Below, piece by piece: positions 4,110 through 50,837 of a stretch of DNA of 64,000 bases; position 1 is the first letter of the stretch, and every line of letters begins with the position of its first letter. Under the pieces are notes generated by a model, which was given only the letters and a program-made list of their open reading frames with translations, did not search any database and was not told where the DNA came from. Origin of the DNA: Azonexus sp. (GTDB lineage Bacteria > Pseudomonadota > Gammaproteobacteria > Burkholderiales > Rhodocyclaceae). The DNA is taken from the NCBI GenBank assembly GCA_030691385.1, contig JAUYEI010000014.1, positions 8,908-72,907 of the forward strand, written 5' to 3'. Position numbers and translations under genes: made by a program.

Positions 4110-4125
4110 AGCGATATGCGTGCCA
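4110..4125 (-). promoter_or_regulatory. sigma54 (-24/-12) promoter of the PEP-CTERM gene
   Basis: Minus strand TGGCACGCATATCGCT = GG-N10-GC, close to consensus TGGCAC-N5-TTGCW. Confidence 0.75.
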
Positions 4126-30769: not shown

Positions 30770-31004
30770 CCTTGAAACCTCAGTTGGGCGTGGCTGAGGG
30801 TGCGCCGGGGCGGGAGGGCCGGCGCCACGCGACGACGCGGCTGGCTCATGCCTGCACGGAGGAGCGACAAAGCCGGACGCCCGACCAGGCGTGCCAGCGG
30901 CCACGTAGCGCTGTCACCCAAGGGGTCAATCGCCTCGAAGGCGCAAAGGCCCGTATGCAGGCGGCTGGCCAAGGCTGGATAAGCGGTCAACTGAGGTTTC
31001 AAGG
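30770..31004. mobile_element. MITE-like element with perfect terminal inverted repeats
   Basis: CCTTGAAACCTCAGTTG (30770-30786) and CAACTGAGGTTTCAAGG (30988-31004), flanked on both sides by AT. Non-coding interior; occupies the whole gap between two operon genes. Confidence 0.7.
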
Positions 31005-39554: not shown

Positions 39555-39738
39555 TGAGCTGAACGGCAAGGGTGTCGCGGGCGACTGCGAATCTGGAGGA
39601 AGCCGAAGGCAAAGCGCTAGCCTAGCGAACAAAGAAGCGGATAAGAGGCGGCACAGTGGGGAAAGACGACCGATATCGTCAAAGCCTGAAGCGGCAGGAC
39701 GGGCAGGGAATGGGTTTCATGCGGGCTCCACGCCCGCA

Positions 39739-44644: not shown

Positions 44645-44762
44645 TGAACAACCTACCTGTCGTCGTAAAGATTAATGATGCGCGAGTCTACGAGGCTTCA
44701 ATGCAAATGACCAGCCTCCCGAAGCTCGGGTGCTGGTCATTTACGTTGAAGCGAAGGGAAAA

Positions 44763-45392
44763 CTAGAAGCTCAGACTGCCGAGCGGACGGTGCAGCAGCA
44801 CCGCCGGCGCATCCACCCGGGGGCAGGTGCGAACGGTACCAATCTGCGAAAACCCGAATTCCCGGCGGTAGTAGGCCGCATGACGCGGATTGACTTCGAT
44901 GACCGCATCGGTCACGCCAAAAACTGCCCGGGCGTATTGATAACTTGAGCGGAAAAGTGATTTCAGCAATTCGGGATCATGGGCATCGACATCCACCGCC
45001 AGCCTTGTTACTTCGCAGAGAACGCGGGACGGCTGGCGCAGCCCGGCCAGTTCCTCGGCGTAGAGATTGTCGGCGAGCAGGCCGGCGCTGGAATCGCGCG
45101 AAGCGGTCAGCGTCGCCACCAGTTCGCCCTCCAGCCAGGCGCCCAGCGTCGCGTGATTCGGATCTTCGATCAGTTGTCGCGGTGGCGAAATCCGGTAGCC
45201 GCGCCAGGCGTACATGCGGCGAACCAGGGCGCTGCAGGCACGGTGCTGGTGGTAGCTCACGGCTGGGGCAACCACCAGTTCCGGTTGCTCAAAACCCCTG
45301 CTGGAGCCGAGCGAACCCGGCCGCAAGGCAGCTAGCATTAAGCCGGGCCGGAGCGTCGAACTTGAGGGTATGACGTTTTGCATAGTCTGCAT
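44763..45392 (-). CDS. FeeM-type N-acyl amino acid synthase (GNAT-like)
   Basis: RRMYAWRGY, GLLADNLY, LCEVTRLAV, VIEVNPRHAAYY...GF, CPRVDAPAVLL match the FeeM/NAS catalytic domain as recalled. ATG at 45392 or 45383. Confidence 0.75.
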   Translation of the reverse strand: MQTMQNVIPSSSTLRPGLMLAALRPGSLGSSRGFEQPELVVAPAVSYHQHRACSALVRRMYAWRGYRISPPRQLIEDPNHATLGAWLEGELVATLTASRDSSAGLLADNLYAEELAGLRQPSRVLCEVTRLAVDVDAHDPELLKSLFRSSYQYARAVFGVTDAVIEVNPRHAAYYRREFGFSQIGTVRTCPRVDAPAVLLHRPLGSLSF

Positions 45393-45415: not shown

Positions 45416-45976
45416 TCAACCGGCTACGGCAACGGCGCTGAGTGTTTTTGCCGTTTCGTCGCGGAGGTGAAAGGGCGTCGATTTCTCGGCCGACAGGGCG
45501 TTGATGTCGCCGCACAATTCGCCGCCTTCATCGATGACCAGCTTGCCGTAGCGGATCTTGCCGTGCACCTTGCCGGTCGCGTGGATGATCAGTTGCGAGC
45601 GGGCAGTCAGTTCGCCTTCGAAGCAGCCGTGAATTTCGGCGATGTCGATGCTGACCTTGCCCGAGAACGAGCCATTGTCGGCGATGCGGATAACCCGGCT
45701 GTCCATGGTCGCTTCGACGCGCCCTTCGACGACCAGCGTGTCGCAATCGAGAATTTCGGCGCCCTTGAGTTTGACATCGGGGCCGACGATCAGGCGGGCG
45801 CCCATGACGTTTTCAGCCGGCGACTCGGTCTTTTCCGGCTGCGGGGCTGGTGTAGCTGCTGTGTTGCTTGGTGCAGCAGAGACGTTAAGGTTGCTGGCGG
45901 CACTGCCCAGAATATTATTGACCTCCTTGTGGGTGATGGCGTCATTGCGATTGGGGATGCTGGGTTTGTTGAACAC
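45416..45976 (-). CDS. Bactofilin (polymer-forming cytoskeletal protein)
   Basis: Disordered N-terminus, then LIVGPDVKLKG...LVVEGRVE...IHGCFEGEL...TGKVHGKIRYGKLVIDEGG beta-helix repeats. GTG start with GGGAG RBS. Confidence 0.88.
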   Translation of the reverse strand: MFNKPSIPNRNDAITHKEVNNILGSAASNLNVSAAPSNTAATPAPQPEKTESPAENVMGARLIVGPDVKLKGAEILDCDTLVVEGRVEATMDSRVIRIADNGSFSGKVSIDIAEIHGCFEGELTARSQLIIHATGKVHGKIRYGKLVIDEGGELCGDINALSAEKSTPFHLRDETAKTLSAVAVAG

Positions 45977-46024
45977 GTTGACTCCCGTCTTGAGGTTTCG
46001 ATGAATGGCGGACCGGAACTCCAG

Positions 46025-46040
46025 TGCGATAAGCGTGCCA
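46025..46040 (-). promoter_or_regulatory. sigma54 promoter of the bactofilin-FeeM operon
   Basis: Minus strand TGGCACGCTTATCGCA (GG-N10-GC). Confidence 0.78.
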
Positions 46041-46059
46041 TGTAATCAAGGTATCAGTT

Positions 46060-46072
46060 AATCAATGACTTA
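46060..46072 (+). promoter_or_regulatory. IHF binding site
   Basis: AATCAATGACTTA = WATCAANNNNTTR exactly, between the activator sites and the sigma54 core. A second exact match lies on the minus strand at 46205-46217. Confidence 0.7.
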
Positions 46073-46114
46073 CGATTTATTTTAAAAGTTGCTTCGTAAT
46101 TCACAGCCTCGATC

Positions 46115-46198
46115 CGTCGTGAAATTGCGACAGATATTTTTGGTTTTCCCGGCAAAGGCAGCTAATCTAGACCAGAAGCCTGTCGTGAAATTGCGACA
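46115..46198. promoter_or_regulatory. Two GlrR-type activator sites (TGTC-N10-GACA)
   Basis: CGTCGTGAAATTGCGACA (46115-46132) and TGTCGTGAAATTGCGACA (46181-46198): 17-bp direct repeat 66 bp apart. Confidence 0.72.
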
Positions 46199-46330
46199 TG
46201 TTTCTAATCAATTGATTTATAAGTTATAAATTGCTCACCATGGCGGCTGATAGCCTGGTTTCCCGGTGGCCTCCCAGCCGTACCCGCCCGCATGGCGGTT
46301 TAAACTTCAGTTTTAAGACACAGAGCGCCG

Positions 46331-47734
46331 ATGAATCGAATTTCCTTCCGCCAGGGGATGTTGCTTGGCTTTGCCCTGATTGTCCTGCTCCTTGGCGGCG
46401 CGGCGGTGCAAAGCTGGCTGGTTGTAGAGCGGCTGGTCGATCAGAGCCGGCGCAGCAGCGAGCTGGCCATTCAGTTGACGGCGTCGATCCAGGAACTTGG
46501 CGAACGCACCGTCGATATCGAACGCAGCGCGCGGCAGTATCTGGTGCTCGACAATCCGGTCTTCCGCCAGCGCTTCGACGAACACCTGAGCCAGTCGCTG
46601 GCCGTCGTCGATCGGCTCGACACGCTGGCCGCCGAGCCGCTCCAGCCCTTGCTTGGCGGTTGGCGCATGGTCGCCGAGGCGCTGCGCAGCGGCCTCGAAC
46701 AGAACATTCCCCAAGCCGAGATCATTCCCCTGCTGGCCCGCATGGCCGAGCTCGATGGCCTGTTGAAGCAGGCCGGGCAACGCTGGATTGAAGGGCAGAA
46801 TCGCAAGTCGCTGGAAGACCTCGAGACCAACCGCTTGCGCCTGGGCGGGCGCATTGCCCTGGCCCTCTGTGGCGCGCTGCTCGTCGCGCTGGCCATGGGC
46901 TGGTGGCTGGTTCGGCCGGTGCGCCACCTTGAGCAGGCGATCATCCGGCTCGGCGCCAGCCGTTTCGACGAAGCCATCACGGTCAGCGGCCCGGCCGACT
47001 TGCGCCAGCTCGGCAAGCGGCTGGACTGGTTGCGCCAGCGTCTGGCCGAGTTGGAGGCGGACCGTGAGCGGGCCTTGCGCCATGTCTCGCACGAATTGAA
47101 AACGCCGCTGACGGCACTCAAGGAAGGCGTCTCCTTGCTCCGCGAGGAAGTCCCCGGACCGCTGGCAGCAGGGCAGCGCGAGGTGGTTGATATCCTGCAG
47201 CACAACGTGATCAGCCTGCAGCAGCAAATCGAGAGCCTGCTGACGCTCAATGCCGCCGCCTTCGAGGCGCGTCGCCTGCAAATTGCCCCGACCCGGCTGC
47301 GCCGGCTGCTCAGCACGGTCGCCCAGCGCCGCGAACTGCACAGCCAGTCGCGGCAGTTGAAGATCGTCATCGAGTCCTCGCAGGAAACGGCCATGCTCGA
47401 CGCCGAGAAAATGACGGTCGTGCTCGACAATCTGTTGTCCAACGCCATCGATTTCAGCCCCGAGAACGGCGAAATCCGCCTCTCGGTCAGCCACATTGAA
47501 GGCCTCTGGCGCTTCGAGTGTGTCGATCAGGGGCCGGGCGTCGCCGAGGAAGACCGGCAACGCATCTTCGAGCCCTTTGTCCAGGGCCAGCGCTCGGCGC
47601 CGGCGCCGCGCCAGGGTAGCGGCGTCGGGCTTTCCATCGTGCGCGAGCTGGTGCGGGCGATGGGCGGCACGGTGTACCTCGTCCCGCAAGAAACGGGCGC
47701 CCATTTTTGTGTGGAAATACCTGATGAGCAGTAA
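46331..47734 (+). CDS. glrK: Sensor histidine kinase GlrK/QseE-like
   Basis: 2 TM + HAMP, LRHVSHELKTPL, NLLSNAIDFSP, DQGPG, GSGVGLSIV. Synteny with lipoprotein and sigma54 response regulator. Confidence 0.8.
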   Translation: MNRISFRQGMLLGFALIVLLLGGAAVQSWLVVERLVDQSRRSSELAIQLTASIQELGERTVDIERSARQYLVLDNPVFRQRFDEHLSQSLAVVDRLDTLAAEPLQPLLGGWRMVAEALRSGLEQNIPQAEIIPLLARMAELDGLLKQAGQRWIEGQNRKSLEDLETNRLRLGGRIALALCGALLVALAMGWWLVRPVRHLEQAIIRLGASRFDEAITVSGPADLRQLGKRLDWLRQRLAELEADRERALRHVSHELKTPLTALKEGVSLLREEVPGPLAAGQREVVDILQHNVISLQQQIESLLTLNAAAFEARRLQIAPTRLRRLLSTVAQRRELHSQSRQLKIVIESSQETAMLDAEKMTVVLDNLLSNAIDFSPENGEIRLSVSHIEGLWRFECVDQGPGVAEEDRQRIFEPFVQGQRSAPAPRQGSGVGLSIVRELVRAMGGTVYLVPQETGAHFCVEIPDEQ

Positions 47735-48284
47735 ATATCCGACGTTTTTCCGCCGCGTGGCGGTTTTCATTTTTGGCCTTTTTTTCGGGTTGACCGTAGC
47801 AGGCTGCGCTTCCGGCCCATTGGCCAGGAAACTGCACCTCGAAGACACCAGTCCGGAGGCTGCACTGGTCTATAACCAGAGCCTGTCGCGCCTGACGCCG
47901 GCCGAACTGGGCCGCGAACGCACGGTGCTCGTTGCCGTGCCGCAGACGCCCTTCACGCAGGTCAGGATGGCCTTGCTGCTCGGGCATCCGCGCGTCCAGC
48001 AGGATCTCGGCAAGGGGCTGGCGCTGCTCGAAGGCGTACTCAAATCGAGCGAACCGGCAGCGGCGCCTTTTCACCCGCTGGCCCGGCAACTCGCCGACAA
48101 CTACCAGGAACGCATGAAACTCGAAAACCAACTGGAAAAGCAGGGCCTGCTCTTGAGCCAGCAACTGAAGGACAGCCAGCGCAAGACGGCCGAACTGCAG
48201 GAAAAACTCGACAGTCTGGCCAACATCGAACAAACACTGATCCCGCGCCCGCGCGTTGTCAGCCCGGATGGAGGCAAGCGGTAA
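47724..48284 (+). CDS. QseG/YfhG-like outer-membrane lipoprotein
   Basis: Lipobox VAGC after a hydrophobic signal, helical/coiled-coil C-terminus (LQEKLDSLANIEQTL). Located between kinase and regulator. Confidence 0.72.
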   Translation: MSSKYPTFFRRVAVFIFGLFFGLTVAGCASGPLARKLHLEDTSPEAALVYNQSLSRLTPAELGRERTVLVAVPQTPFTQVRMALLLGHPRVQQDLGKGLALLEGVLKSSEPAAAPFHPLARQLADNYQERMKLENQLEKQGLLLSQQLKDSQRKTAELQEKLDSLANIEQTLIPRPRVVSPDGGKR

Positions 48285-49693
48285 TGGCCGGCGCCCACGT
48301 ACTGGTCGTCGACGACGACGACGATATTCTCAAGCTGCTGACCATGCGCCTGCGCGCCAAGGGTTTCCGCATCACCGCTGTCGGTTCGGCCGAGCAGGCG
48401 CTGGCCCAGATCGCCGTCGATCCGCCGCGCGTCGTCGTCAGCGACGTTCGCCTGCCCGGGCTGGACGGCCTGGCGCTGTTCGAGGAAATCCGCCGGACCC
48501 GGCCAACGCTGCCGGTCATCCTGCTCACCGCCCACGGCAATATCCCCGATGCCGTCGCTGCCACCTCGCGCGGCGTTTTCGGCTACCTGACCAAACCCTT
48601 CGACAGCCAGATCCTGCTCGAAAAGATCGACCGTGCCCTGCAACTCTCGGCGCCGACCTCGCACCCAGGTGACGAGCCACGCGCGGCCGGGAAGGGCGAC
48701 GACGCCTGGATGGAAGGTGTCATCTTCCGCAGTAGCCGGATGGCCGAACTGATGGCCGAGGCGCGCATGGTCGCCGCCTCCGATGCCAGCGTGCTGATCC
48801 GCGGCGAAAGCGGCAGCGGCAAGGAAGTCCTGGCCCGCGCCATCCACCGCGCCAGTCCGCGCGCCAAGGGGCCATTCGTCGCCATCAACTGCGGTGCCAT
48901 TCCCGAACAACTGCTTGAATCCGAACTCTTCGGCCACGCCAAAGGCGCCTTCACCGGTGCCGGTGCCAGTCGTGTCGGCCTGTTCCAGACGGCCAATGGC
49001 GGCACGCTCTTCCTCGACGAAATCGGCGACATGCCGCTCGCCCTGCAGGTCAAGCTGCTGCGCGTGCTGCAGGAACGCGTCGTGCGCCCGGTCGGCACGA
49101 CCAAGGCCGAGCCGGTCGATGTCCGTCTGCTCTCGGCGACCCACCGCGACCTTGATCTTGCGATGGCCCAGGGCCAATTCCGCGAAGACCTCTATTACCG
49201 TCTCGACGTCGTGTCGCTGACCCTGCCCCGCCTCGACGAGCGGCGCGAAGACATCCCGCTGCTCGCCCTGCATTTCGTCCAGCTCCTCGCCGGAAAATAC
49301 GGCAAACCGGTCAACGGCTTCGCCCCCGAAGCGCTGGAGGCGCTGGCCACGGCCGCCTGGCCGGGCAACGTCCGGCAACTGTTCAACGTCGTCGAGCAAA
49401 GCTGCGCGCTGACCTCCACGCCGCTCATCCCGCTGACCCTCGTCCAGCGCGCCCTGCGCGTGCCGGTCATGGACGCCCTCAATTACGCCGAAGCCAAGCA
49501 ACGCTTCGAGCGCAACTACCTCGTCCAGCTTCTCAAACTGACCGACGGCAATGTCGCTGATGCCGCGCGCCTGGCCGAACGCAACCGGACCGAGTTCTAC
49601 CGCCTGTTGCAGAAACACGACCTGACGCCAGCCATGTTCCGCAGCGAAGGCGATAGCCCGCCGTCAGGCGGAGACAAGCCGGGGCCTGCCTAG
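48284..49693 (+). CDS. glrR: sigma54-dependent response regulator GlrR/QseF-like
   Basis: Receiver, GESGSGKE, ESELFGHAKGAFTGA, DEIGDMP, WPGNVRQL, and C-terminal AARLAERNRTEFYRLL, characteristic of GlrR. Confidence 0.85.
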   Translation: MAGAHVLVVDDDDDILKLLTMRLRAKGFRITAVGSAEQALAQIAVDPPRVVVSDVRLPGLDGLALFEEIRRTRPTLPVILLTAHGNIPDAVAATSRGVFGYLTKPFDSQILLEKIDRALQLSAPTSHPGDEPRAAGKGDDAWMEGVIFRSSRMAELMAEARMVAASDASVLIRGESGSGKEVLARAIHRASPRAKGPFVAINCGAIPEQLLESELFGHAKGAFTGAGASRVGLFQTANGGTLFLDEIGDMPLALQVKLLRVLQERVVRPVGTTKAEPVDVRLLSATHRDLDLAMAQGQFREDLYYRLDVVSLTLPRLDERREDIPLLALHFVQLLAGKYGKPVNGFAPEALEALATAAWPGNVRQLFNVVEQSCALTSTPLIPLTLVQRALRVPVMDALNYAEAKQRFERNYLVQLLKLTDGNVADAARLAERNRTEFYRLLQKHDLTPAMFRSEGDSPPSGGDKPGPA

Positions 49694-49702
49694 CGAAACA
49701 GC

Positions 49703-49731
49703 GCCGTCATTCCCGACTGCGCGGGATGACG
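49703..49731 (+). terminator. Hairpin downstream of glrR (terminator or REP-like)
   Basis: CCGTCATTCCCG-actgcg-CGGGATGACGG. Confidence 0.45.
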
Positions 49732-49766
49732 GTTTCCCGGGGATTTCTCCCCGCGGCAAAAACAGC

Positions 49767-49864
49767 TGTCGTTACCGCACGACGGAATACCCGTCGTTGA
49801 AAACGCAAGACTGATTTAATTCGTTGATTTAAAACAAAAATAAATAGCTGGCACGGACTTCGCA
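49767..49864 (+). promoter_or_regulatory. GlrR-type site + IHF site + sigma54 promoter of the BON gene
   Basis: TGTCGTTACCGCACGACG (49767-49784); IHF on the minus strand AATCAACGAATTA (49817-49829); TGGCACGGACTTCGCA (49849-49864). Confidence 0.72.
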
Positions 49865-49901
49865 ATAGGCTGATGGCAATCAACAATAAAAGGGAATAGC
49901 C

Positions 49902-50243
49902 ATGTTCAAACGTCACCTCATGGTCGCCAGCATCACCGCTGCAGCCACCTTTGCCGGCCTCGGCCTTGCCGCCTTCGCCACCGACGATCCGCAACTGCTC
50001 GCCGCGATGGTGGCCAACAACGAAGCTCAGGACGCGGCCCTCATCGACAAGGTCGAAACCCTGCTGCGCACCGACATCGGTCTGGCCGGTTCGCAGTTCC
50101 GTGTCCTTGCCAAATCAGCCGTCGTTACCGTTGGCGGCTCGGTGCCCGACGAACATGCGCTGCGCCGGGCGATCGACCTCGCCAGTGGTGTTCGCGGCGT
50201 GCGTGAAGTGCGCAACGCCATGGAGGTCGATGTCCCAAAGTAA
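49902..50243 (+). CDS. Secreted single BON-domain protein
   Basis: Signal peptide, DAALIDKVETLL..., VVTVGGSVP, ASGVRGVREVRNAM. AGGG RBS. Confidence 0.85.
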   Translation: MFKRHLMVASITAAATFAGLGLAAFATDDPQLLAAMVANNEAQDAALIDKVETLLRTDIGLAGSQFRVLAKSAVVTVGGSVPDEHALRRAIDLASGVRGVREVRNAMEVDVPK

Positions 50244-50279: not shown

Positions 50280-50546
50280 TCAGTCTGATTCCAGAGTCAC
50301 CAGTAGCGCGCCTTCGGCGACTGTATCGCCCTCTGTAACGTGGATTTGAACCACCCGGCCCGCGTGCGGGCTGGGAATATCCAGCGCCACCTTGCCGGTT
50401 TCCAGCGTCAGAATGTTGTCGTCGCGCTCCACCCTGTCGCCAACCGCCACCAGCAATTCGAGAATGAATACATCGCCGCTCGCGCACGAACCGCAACTCG
50501 ACCAGCACTCGGGGTACATCGGCATGCGAACGAAGGAGAAAGACAT
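50280..50546 (-). CDS. Stand-alone lipoyl/biotinyl carrier domain with Cys-rich insert
   Basis: VAVGDRV...LTLETGKVALDIPSPHAGRV..IHV.EGDTV.EG aligns to E2 lipoyl domains. N-terminal ECWSSCGSC. Confidence 0.75.
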   Translation of the reverse strand: MSFSFVRMPMYPECWSSCGSCASGDVFILELLVAVGDRVERDDNILTLETGKVALDIPSPHAGRVVQIHVTEGDTVAEGALLVTLESD

Positions 50547-50567
50547 CAGCTTTTTTCGGCGGAAACC

Positions 50568-50602
50568 TTGCATTCTACGCCAGCGCCCGTATAATGCGCC
50601 GC
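50568..50602 (+). promoter_or_regulatory. sigma70 stable-RNA promoter for the tRNA pair
   Basis: TTGCAT-16 nt-TATAAT followed by GC-rich discriminator GCGCCGC. Confidence 0.75.
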
Positions 50603-50611
50603 TCTGACAGT

Positions 50612-50688
50612 GCGCCCGTAGCTCAGCTGGATAGAGTACTTGGCTACGAACCAAGGGGTCGGGCGTTCGAATCGCTCCGGGCGCACCA
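50612..50688 (+). tRNA. tRNA-Arg(ACG)
   Basis: 77 nt, acceptor GCGCCCG/CGGGCGC, anticodon loop CT-ACG-AA, T-loop TTCGAAT, encoded CCA. Confidence 0.97.
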
Positions 50689-50750
50689 GCAGAACAACCC
50701 GCCGAAGCTTGAAAAACCGGCAGCAGTAGAAGATAAAGCAGTTTAGGTGT

Positions 50751-50827
50751 GCGCCCGTAGCTCAGCTGGATAGAGTACTTGGCTACGAACCAAGGGGTCG
50801 GGCGTTCGAATCGCTCCGGGCGCACCA
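50751..50827 (+). tRNA. tRNA-Arg(ACG), identical second copy
   Basis: Identical 77-nt sequence. Confidence 0.97.
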
Positions 50828-50837
50828 AAAATTCATG

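What the first reader, a model, noticed from the sequence alone, without database searches (positions are those of the whole stretch)
46025..49864. Self-contained GlrK/QseG/GlrR-type regulon: both flanking units carry activator site + IHF + sigma54 promoter
Seen: on the left, two TGTC-N10-GACA-type sites, an exact IHF site and TGGCACGCTTATCGCA drive bactofilin-FeeM. On the right, TGTCGTTACCGCACGACG, an exact IHF site and TGGCACGGACTTCGCA drive the BON gene. Oriented toward their promoters, the three sites share TGTCG-N6-CACGAC(A/G) and lie about 90-185 bp upstream of the inferred TSS. Established: enterobacterial GlrR/QseF binds TGTC-N10-GACA and activates sigma54 promoters, notably of the sRNA GlmY. 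Inference: here the system is rewired to protein outputs (cytoskeleton, lipid synthase, BON envelope protein), an undescribed envelope-remodelling response.
Basis: partly seen in the sequence, partly recalled or inferred. Interest (0 to 1): 0.78.

Follow-up and report, generated by a model that had tools for sequence, protein, structure and literature searches.

The report
GlrR/sigma-54 switch driving envelope genes
A relative of the E. coli envelope sensor GlrK-QseG-GlrR sits between two conserved sigma-54 promoters carrying GlrR-type binding sites, so it very probably switches on a membrane cytoskeletal protein with a lipid-making enzyme on one side and a secreted BON protein on the other, and similar wiring recurs in most sampled betaproteobacterial genera that carry the sensor.

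Summary
Both intergenic regions flanking glrK-lipoprotein-glrR carry TGTCG-N8-CGAC(A/G) palindromes, an exact IHF site and a -24/-12 promoter. All of these are conserved in 15 species of the genus while the surrounding DNA diverges.

GlrR is 55% identical to E. coli GlrR and has the same recognition helix. The layout matches the E. coli glmY promoter: sites about 65 bp apart, the proximal one about 90 bp before TGGCAC.

In 64 of 76 loci from other betaproteobacterial genera, a comparable unit follows glrR. It drives EF-hand/BON, glycine-zipper, OpgGH or CsbD-type genes. None was found in 57 control loci around other sigma-54 activators.

- The regulon is not self-contained. A third unit lies on another contig, ahead of a contractile-injection gene cluster, and a MITE splits it there.
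- Protein outputs are the common state outside the enterobacteria, not a local rewiring.

The middle lipoprotein is at best a remote QseG homologue.

This scan has already noted such units in at least 52 other genomes, including one bactofilin+BON case. I found no published description.

The parts
44705..44742 (-). Stem-loop after FeeM, the likely end of the bactofilin-FeeM transcript
   Evidence: Read from the sequence: AATGACCAGC...GCTGGTCATT directly after the FeeM stop. It was not picked up by the T-run terminator scan.
44763..45392 (-). FeeM-type N-acyl amino acid synthase gene (209 aa from the ATG at 45392), second gene of the left unit
   Evidence: Pfam PF21926, E 5.5e-48. The ATG lies 23 nt after the bactofilin stop. 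FeeM is present next to bactofilin in 11 of 16 bactofilin-bearing loci, including two outside the genus.
45416..45976 (-). Bactofilin gene (186 aa; GTG start here, ATG in relatives; N-terminus MFNKP)
   Evidence: Pfam PF04519, E 1.8e-17. The start codon and ribosome-binding site are conserved in the alignment of 13 species.
46025..46040 (-). Sigma-54 promoter of bactofilin-FeeM, TGGCACGCTTATCGCA; inferred transcription start near 46014
   Evidence: The promoter is conserved as TGGCAC-N5-TCGCA in the genus alignment while the flanks diverge.
46060..46072 (+). Exact IHF site AATCAATGACTTA between the proximal GlrR-type site and the promoter
   Evidence: only 3 exact matches in 64 kb, all in these two intergenic regions. 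The core TTGWTT column is conserved.
46115..46132 (.). Proximal GlrR-type site CGTCGTGAAATTGCGACA, 92 bp before TGGCAC
   Evidence: 17.1 bits with a PWM trained only on other genomes.
46181..46198 (.). Distal GlrR-type site TGTCGTGAAATTGCGACA, 66 bp from the proximal site
   Evidence: 20.6 bits. The 65-67 bp spacing is kept in the genus and in 64 of 70 site pairs elsewhere.
46205..46217 (-). Second exact IHF-consensus match on the glrK side of the distal site
   Evidence: E. coli glmY also has two IHF sites.
46331..47734 (+). glrK-type sensor histidine kinase gene (467 aa)
   Evidence: HAMP + HisKA + HATPase_c domains. 31% identity to E. coli GlrK over the full length, including the periplasmic part, E 3e-58.
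47724..48284 (+). Lipoprotein gene (186 aa, lipobox VAGC, coiled-coil C-terminus). It overlaps the glrK stop by 11 nt and its stop overlaps the glrR ATG (TAATG).
   Evidence: Sequence. No match to the Pfam or NCBIfam QseG models. An iterated profile reaches enterobacterial QseG at E 4e-5 to 3e-4, and hhalign gives 92% probability.
48284..49693 (+). glrR-type sigma-54-dependent response regulator gene (469 aa)
   Evidence: Best NCBIfam hit is GlrR at 603.9 bits, against NtrC at 411. 55% identity to E. coli GlrR. The recognition helix RNRTEFY(K/R)LL is invariant.
49766..49783 (.). GlrR-type site TGTCGTTACCGCACGACG, 83 bp before TGGCAC of the BON promoter
   Evidence: 13.9 bits.
49817..49829 (-). 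Exact IHF site AATCAACGAATTA between the site and the promoter
   Evidence: The core is conserved.
49849..49864 (+). Sigma-54 promoter of the BON gene, TGGCACGGACTTCGCA; inferred transcription start near 49875
   Evidence: It is conserved as CTGGCAC-N5-T(C/T)GC in 11 species.
49902..50243 (+). Gene for a secreted single-BON-domain protein (113 aa)
   Evidence: Pfam PF04972, E 3.3e-10. Weak OsmY/DolP-type NCBIfam hits.

Best explanation
Proposed mechanism:
1. An envelope signal, still unknown, is sensed by the membrane kinase GlrK together with the periplasmic lipoprotein encoded between the kinase and regulator genes.
2. GlrK phosphorylates GlrR at Asp54.
3. Phosphorylated GlrR binds the TGTCG-N8-CGAC(A/G) palindromes, two upstream of bactofilin-FeeM and one upstream of the BON gene.
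4. IHF bends the DNA between site and promoter.
5. The AAA+ domain of GlrR opens the sigma-54 closed complex.

The outputs would be a membrane-associated bactofilin co-transcribed with an N-acyl amino acid synthase, and a secreted BON protein. A third unit of the same build on contig C70 drives a 113-aa protein at the head of a contractile-injection gene cluster. In this genome a MITE separates its sites from its promoter.

Shown in silico: the elements, their conservation, and their specific linkage to glrR orthologues. Inferred: binding, activation, the signal, and the physiological role (an envelope or osmotic stress response).
For: Elements and their rarity:
-.
- The genome has one rpoN and 11 full sigma-54 activators.

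Phylogenetic footprints in 13 and 11 species:
- Half-sites, IHF core, -24/-12 elements, ribosome-binding site and start codon are conserved.
- The site spacers and the rest of the intergenic DNA vary.

Link to E. coli GlrR:
- 55% identity to E. coli GlrR, with an invariant recognition helix.
- The experimentally defined E. coli site is TGTCN10GACA and needs IHF (PMC3045617).
- E. coli glmY has sites at -230, -197 and -134, IHF sites at -177 and -58, and TGGCAC at -27. Its second site is TGTCGC-N6-GCGACA.

Linkage to glrR:
- 64 of 76 loci from other genera have such a unit right after glrR, and 55 of them have two sites.
- The control found 0 of 57 loci around other activators, and 1 unit in 639 kb.

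Other points:
- A PWM trained without this genome scores the window's sites at 13.9-20.6 bits.
- The three genes overlap, which suggests translational coupling.
Against: - There are no transcript, binding or mutant data.
- GlrR scores below NCBIfam's equivalog cut-off (603.9 against 763).
- The lipoprotein fails the QseG family models.
- The -12 element is TCGCA rather than TTGCA.
- The BON promoter has a single, weaker site (13.9 bits).
- About a third of the survey loci contributed sites to the PWM, so the survey is not fully independent. The 60 loci L165-L224 are independent.
- The envelope-stress role rests only on what the targets encode.
Confidence: 0.82

Rival explanations
1. The palindromes are bound by a different regulator, such as one of the other ten sigma-54 activators or a repressor. 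Their position next to glrR would then be incidental.
For: The genome encodes 11 full sigma-54 activators. No binding data exist. A strong PWM hit at C98:6207 has no sigma-54 promoter nearby.
Against: - The unit follows glrR orthologues in 64 of 76 genera although the target genes differ, and in 0 of 57 loci around other activators.
- The motif equals the experimentally defined E. coli GlrR site, and the recognition helix is identical.
Confidence: 0.06
2. The palindromes are RNA or DNA hairpins (terminators or repeat elements), not protein-binding sites.
For: The terminator scan flags all three as short stem-loops. The right-hand one lies 73 bp after the glrR stop.
Against: - The half-site sequence itself is conserved rather than covarying, and the loop region varies freely.
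- No T-run follows the sites.
- Spacing to each other and to the -24 element is fixed.
- Only a handful of copies occur in the genome.
Confidence: 0.03
3. The units are GlrR- and sigma-54-dependent, but the response is to periplasmic calcium or another divalent cation, or to growth phase, rather than to envelope damage or osmotic stress.
For: - In other genera many targets are secreted EF-hand proteins or EF-hand+BON fusions, in the same cluster as this BON protein.
- In E. coli the stimulus is unknown and activity rises in stationary phase (PMC6075780).
Against: - This genus's BON protein has no EF-hand.
- OpgGH, glycine-zipper and CsbD-type targets point to osmotic or general envelope stress instead.
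- No experiment separates these signals.
Confidence: 0.2

Closest known systems
GlrK(QseE)-QseG-GlrR(QseF) with the sigma-54/IHF promoter of glmY (and glmZ) in Enterobacteriaceae (PMC3045617, PMC6075780)
   Same: - Gene order kinase-lipoprotein-regulator with overlapping genes.
- 55% identical regulator with an identical recognition helix.
- TGTC-N10-GACA sites about 63-66 bp apart, the proximal one about 90-107 bp before TGGCAC.
- IHF site between site and promoter.

   Different: - The outputs are protein genes (bactofilin-FeeM, BON), not a small RNA. No GlmY or GlmZ is found in the genome.
- One unit is divergent from glrK and one follows glrR, whereas in E. coli the unit sits upstream of glrK in the same direction.
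- There are two sites or one, rather than three.
- The lipoprotein is outside the QseG Pfam family.
QseF-activated sigma-54 P2 promoter of rpoE in E. coli (as described in PMC6075780)
   Same: A protein-coding gene for envelope homeostasis is activated directly by GlrR/QseF from a sigma-54 promoter with similar upstream sites.
   Different: That target is a sigma factor located away from the operon. Here the targets are structural or enzymatic envelope proteins next to the operon. No GlrR-type site plus sigma-54 promoter was found at other loci except C70.
Osmotically induced envelope proteins of E. coli (OsmY, a double-BON protein; OsmB, a glycine-zipper lipoprotein; YjbJ, CsbD-like; OpgGH). 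Their regulation by RpoS/Rcs is from my own knowledge.
   Same: The same protein types appear as GlrR/sigma-54 targets in this genus (BON) and in other betaproteobacterial genera.
   Different: The control system is different (sigma-54 plus GlrR rather than RpoS/Rcs). Bactofilin and FeeM have no counterpart in that E. coli set.

Membership tests
GlrK/QseG/GlrR (QseEGF) three-component system | Response regulator with receiver + sigma-54 AAA+ + HTH domains, orthologous to GlrR | tested here: inconclusive
   - Domains are present.
- The best NCBIfam model is GlrR at 603.9 bits (NtrC 411), but this is below the equivalog cut-off of 763.
- 55% identity to E. coli GlrR over the full length.
- Asp54, GAFTGA and the recognition helix are conserved.
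GlrK/QseG/GlrR (QseEGF) three-component system | Cognate membrane kinase GlrK encoded first in the operon | tested here: met
   HAMP/HisKA/HATPase domains. 31% identity to E. coli GlrK over residues 25-467, including the periplasmic part, E 3e-58. NCBIfam returned no GlrK-specific model even for E. coli GlrK itself.
GlrK/QseG/GlrR (QseEGF) three-component system | QseG (YfhG, PF13942) lipoprotein encoded between kinase and regulator | tested here: inconclusive
   - A lipoprotein is at that position in all but four of the 44 orthologous loci examined.
- It does not match PF13942 or NCBIfam QseG even at E<=10, and BLASTP is not significant.
- An iterated profile hits enterobacterial QseG at E 3.8e-5 to 2.7e-4 in a set of 20.6k ORFs, and hhalign gives 92% probability.
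- The signal is mostly a C-terminal coiled-coil motif that another lipoprotein of this genome also carries.
GlrK/QseG/GlrR (QseEGF) three-component system | Regulator binds TGTC-N10-GACA sites upstream of sigma-54 promoters, assisted by IHF | tested here: met
   Met at sequence level only. Sites, IHF consensus and promoters are present, conserved and specifically linked to glrR. Binding itself is not testable with these tools.
GlrK/QseG/GlrR (QseEGF) three-component system | Controls the small RNAs GlmY/GlmZ | tested here: not met
   No GlmY_tke1 or GlmZ_SraJ match in the window or in the 99.9%-complete genome. The E. coli control was positive.
Sigma-54-dependent promoter | GG at -24 and GC at -12 with fixed spacing, rpoN present, activator sites upstream | tested here: met
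   TGGCAC-N5-TCGCA appears twice and is conserved. One rpoN gene is present. Transcription was not tested.
Bactofilin | Bactofilin (DUF583) beta-helical domain | tested here: met
   PF04519, 63.8 bits against a cut-off of 27.9.
FeeM N-acyl amino acid synthase | FeeM domain | tested here: met
   PF21926, 163.2 bits against a cut-off of 27. Enzyme activity was not tested.
BON domain proteins (OsmY/DolP type) | BON domain behind an export signal | tested here: met
   PF04972, 40.5 bits against a cut-off of 27. The hydrophobic N-terminus was read from the sequence. The protein is far below the OsmY and DolP equivalog cut-offs, so it belongs to the domain family only.

The most novel reading that the evidence does not exclude
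The GlrK-lipoprotein-GlrR system may be, in origin, a direct sigma-54 switch for periplasmic and envelope proteins, with the enterobacterial GlmY small RNA as a late substitute. The target types seen are:
- BON and EF-hand proteins
- glycine-zipper proteins
- periplasmic glucan synthesis genes
- CsbD-type proteins

In this lineage the switch has additionally taken over a membrane-bound bactofilin paired with an N-acyl amino acid synthase, and a gene at the head of a contractile-injection cluster. Envelope sensing would then be coupled to cytoskeleton-guided lipid modification. If so, the target sets could point to the long-unknown stimulus of QseE/GlrK.
Probability: 0.45. Interest if true: 0.75.

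Novelty: new variant of a known kind. Interest (0 to 1): 0.6.

Why it matters
QseE/QseG/QseF (GlrK/GlrR) is described in the papers I read as an enterobacterial system whose stimulus is unknown, with known direct targets glmY/glmZ and rpoE.

- Here, and in most sampled betaproteobacterial genera that carry the system, the same regulator and the same promoter layout sit directly in front of envelope and periplasmic protein genes.
- That gives a set of simple, testable outputs. The types of target (BON, glycine zipper, periplasmic glucans, CsbD) suggest an osmotic or envelope signal.
- A sigma-54 promoter in front of a bactofilin gene, paired with a lipid-modifying enzyme, did not turn up in my two literature searches that included the term bactofilin.

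Tried and rejected
TGTCG-N6-CACGAC finds only the three local sites and would have suggested a closed regulon. A PWM from other genomes was needed to find the C70 unit.
- **QseG models.** Pfam, NCBIfam and BLASTP comparisons of the lipoprotein with QseG gave nothing.
- **113-aa C70 protein.** Pfam and NCBIfam gave nothing.
- **Rfam.** A scan of the C70 leader found only a chance-level hit.
- **Literature.** Searches for GlrR/QseF outside enterobacteria and for sigma-54 control of bactofilin, BON or opgGH returned no relevant paper. One query was badly designed and uninformative.
- **Organism.** The organism's name could not be obtained, because close records appear to be left out of the named collection.
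- **Weak candidates.** A candidate site upstream of ftsH (C16) and one on C61 found with loose patterns were not pursued. The sites score poorly.
- **Read-through into the injection cluster.** Whether the C70 transcript reads into that cluster could not be decided. There is a 600-bp gap with no clear terminator.


Full report
**What is in the window**

The finding spans the two intergenic regions that flank a three-gene operon:
- glrK-type kinase, 46331-47734.
- A lipoprotein, 47724-48284, with lipobox VAGC.
- glrR-type sigma-54 activator, 48284-49693.

The genes overlap (an 11-nt overlap, then TAATG), which suggests translational coupling.

To the left, on the minus strand, lie a bactofilin gene (45416-45976) and a FeeM-type N-acyl amino acid synthase gene 23 nt after it (44763-45392), followed by a stem-loop. 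To the right lies a 113-aa secreted BON protein gene (49902-50243). EttA bounds the block on the left. A small lipoyl-domain gene and two tRNA genes bound it on the right.

**Observation check**

- TGGCAC-N5-TNGCW gives 3 matches in 64 kb, against 0.35 expected.
It occurs only 3 times in the whole 3.45-Mb genome, all here.
- The exact IHF consensus occurs three times in the window, all inside these two intergenic regions, against 0.74 expected.
- A loose genome-wide search for a YGTC-N10-GACR site within 300 bp upstream of a sigma-54-like promoter found these two units. It also found two weak candidates.

**Conservation**

I fetched the locus from 14 other species of the genus and from other families. 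Gene order is kept, although FeeM, BON or bactofilin is missing in some species.

Alignments of the left region (13 species) and the right region (11 species) show classic footprints.
- Conserved: the half-sites TGTCG(C) and (G)CGAC(A/G), an AT-rich IHF core, CTGGCAC-N5-TCGCA, the ribosome-binding site and the start codon.
- Variable: the 6-8 bases inside each palindrome and nearly everything else.
- Spacing: the two left sites stay 65-67 bp apart. The proximal one lies about 92 bp before TGGCAC in most species (80-81 bp in three), and the right site lies 81-83 bp before it (92 bp in one).

The half-sites are conserved in sequence rather than covarying. This argues for a protein-binding site and against an RNA hairpin.

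**Is it a GlrK/QseG/GlrR system?**

- Regulator: its best family model is GlrR (603.9 bits; NtrC 411), though below the equivalog cut-off. It is 55% identical to E. coli GlrR over the full length. In an alignment of ten betaproteobacterial orthologues with E. coli GlrR, the recognition helix RNRTEFY(K/R)LL is invariant. So are the phospho-acceptor Asp and GAFTGA.
- Kinase: 31% identical to E. coli GlrK, including the periplasmic part.
- Lipoprotein: it does not match the QseG models of Pfam or NCBIfam even at E<=10. A lipoprotein was found between kinase and regulator in 40 of the 44 orthologous loci examined, from beta-, gamma- and deltaproteobacteria and Nitrospira. These share a C-terminal KL-x2-L-x2-IE-x2-L coiled-coil motif with E. 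coli QseG.
  - A profile of the betaproteobacterial proteins, iterated once, reaches the three enterobacterial QseGs at E 3.8e-5 to 2.7e-4 against 20.6k ORFs.
  - hhalign gives 92% probability over 121 columns.
  - A second small lipoprotein of this genome carries the same C-terminal motif.
  - I therefore call this a probable remote homologue, not a member.

**Comparison with the E. coli glmY promoter**

In E. coli K-12, glmY, glrK, qseG and glrR all run in the same direction. The glmY promoter has GlrR sites at -230, -197 and -134, IHF matches at -177 and -58, and TGGCAC at -27. The second site reads TGTCGC-N6-GCGACA, identical to the betaproteobacterial consensus.

The published consensus TGTCN10GACA, and the need for IHF, are experimental results (PMC3045617). 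The layout in the window is the same in site sequence, in site spacing and in the IHF site between site and promoter. The genome has one rpoN and 11 full sigma-54 activators. It has no GlmY or GlmZ.

**How general is it?**

A GlrR orthologue (E<=1e-140) is present in 139 of 301 sampled genomes of the order, in 64 of 144 genera. I fetched one locus per genus where possible and added named loci from a public collection. I then scanned all of them with a PWM built from sites of other genomes and a simple -24/-12 score.

| Set | Loci | With a unit right after the activator gene | With two sites |
|---|---|---|---|
| GlrR orthologues, other genera | 76 | 64 | 55 |
| Control: other sigma-54 activators (36-47% identical) | 57 | 0 | 0 |

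- Site spacing is 64-68 bp in 64 of 70 pairs, and the proximal site lies 82-98 bp (interquartile range) before TGGCAC.
- The control set had 1 unit anywhere in 639 kb.
- About a third of the survey loci had contributed training sites. The 60 loci L165-L224 had not.

The genes behind these promoters fall into a few classes:
- secreted BON, EF-hand or EF-hand+BON proteins
- membrane-anchored glycine-zipper proteins
- OpgG or OpgH (periplasmic glucan synthesis)
- CsbD-like proteins
- a 57-aa acidic protein
- small membrane proteins

The divergent bactofilin unit occurs in 16 loci: the genus, a second genus of the family, another family, and one named metagenome bin. Eleven of the 16 also carry FeeM. 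The window is therefore one member of a widespread arrangement. Its special feature is the added bactofilin-FeeM unit.

**The regulon is not closed**

The PWM scan of the window's own genome ranks a pair on contig C70 first (22.7 and 16.0 bits, 67 bp apart). It lies after a yjbQ-like gene.

In five related species the pair is followed about 70 bp later by TGGCCCGGTAGTTGC(A/G). Next comes a conserved 113-aa protein with no family match, and then the sheath gene of a contractile-injection-type cluster.

In this genome a 245-bp MITE sits between the sites and the promoter, pushing them 299 bp apart. It has 15 or more copies in the genome and belongs to the same family as the element at window 30770-31004. 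Two things cannot be told from sequence:
- whether the promoter still responds to GlrR;
- whether its transcript reaches the injection genes across a 600-bp gap.

**Mechanism and role**

- Best-supported reading (confidence about 0.8): GlrK and the lipoprotein sense a signal. Phosphorylated GlrR then binds the palindromes and, with IHF, activates the sigma-54 promoters of bactofilin-FeeM and BON.
- Physiological reading (perhaps 0.5): an envelope or osmotic stress response. It is inferred only from what the targets encode here and in other genera.
- From my own knowledge, the conserved MFNK N-terminus resembles the membrane-targeting sequence of bactofilins. That would fit a scaffold placing the acyl-amino-acid synthase at the membrane.

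**Literature and earlier notes**

The papers I could search describe QseE/QseG/QseF as an enterobacterial system with an unknown stimulus and with glmY/glmZ and rpoE as targets. One survey lists GlrK/GlrR orthologues in beta- and deltaproteobacteria and Nitrospira without naming targets. I found nothing on bactofilin, BON, glycine-zipper or opgGH promoters under GlrR. Subscription journals and regulon databases were not searchable.

This scan has noted the same kind of unit 58 times in at least 52 genomes. Those notes include a bactofilin+BON case, opgGH, EF-hand, glycine-zipper and 57-codon targets. My survey reproduced those classes independently.

**Verdict**

This is a real, well-conserved regulatory architecture and a new variant of a known system. 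All support is computational.

Noticed in passing
G000 contig C70:22375-23157 (locus L133:2376-3158), outside the window: A third GlrR-type unit: two sites 67 bp apart, the sigma-54 promoter TGGCCCGGTAGTTGCA and a 113-aa protein with no family match. It is conserved without the MITE in five related species. Here a 245-bp MITE separates the sites from the promoter.
   Followed up: partly
G000 contig C70:23756-46649, outside the window: A contractile-injection or phage-tail-like gene cluster (sheath, tube, DUF4255-like, AAA+ ATPase, spike and baseplate-like ORFs, judged from their N-terminal sequences) lies directly downstream of the third unit. Co-transcription is unknown.
   Followed up: no
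window 30770-31004 and at least 15 other places in the genome: A MITE family of about 240 bp with terminal repeats CCTTGAAACCTC / GAGGTTTCAAGG. Copies are 90-97% alike within the genome, and related copies occur in other species of the genus.
   Followed up: partly
G000 contig C117, about 2450-2800 (locus L135): A small lipoprotein (about 115 aa) whose C-terminal coiled coil carries the same KLxxLxxI(D/E)RxL motif as the GlrK-associated lipoproteins and QseG. Its neighbours were not examined.
   Followed up: no
G000 contig C98:6207-6224 (locus L134): A strong GlrR-type palindrome, TGTCGCTCAGAGACGACA (20.9 bits), with no sigma-54-like promoter within 350 bp. Unexplained.
   Followed up: no
window 4110-4125 (-): A sigma-54-like promoter, TGGCACGCATATCGCT, resembles the bactofilin promoter but has no GlrR-type site nearby. 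It probably belongs to another activator.
   Followed up: no
window 50612-50685 and 50751-50824: Two tRNA genes with identical scores lie inside the long minus-strand ORF 50280-50828. That ORF is therefore spurious beyond the 88-aa lipoyl-domain gene.
   Followed up: no
window 39575-39734: An Rfam match to group II intron domains D1-D4 (40.1 bits, above the gathering score).
   Followed up: no
L062:3160-3400 (Kushneria), L061 and L069 (Xenorhabdus, Arsenophonus): In gammaproteobacterial loci the sites and the sigma-54 promoter lie upstream of glrK in the same direction, as for glmY. In Kushneria no convincing ORF follows, which suggests a non-GlmY small RNA.
   Followed up: no
L060, L192, L199, L216: In four genera the GlrR/sigma-54 unit drives a conserved acidic protein of about 57 aa with no family match.
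   Followed up: no
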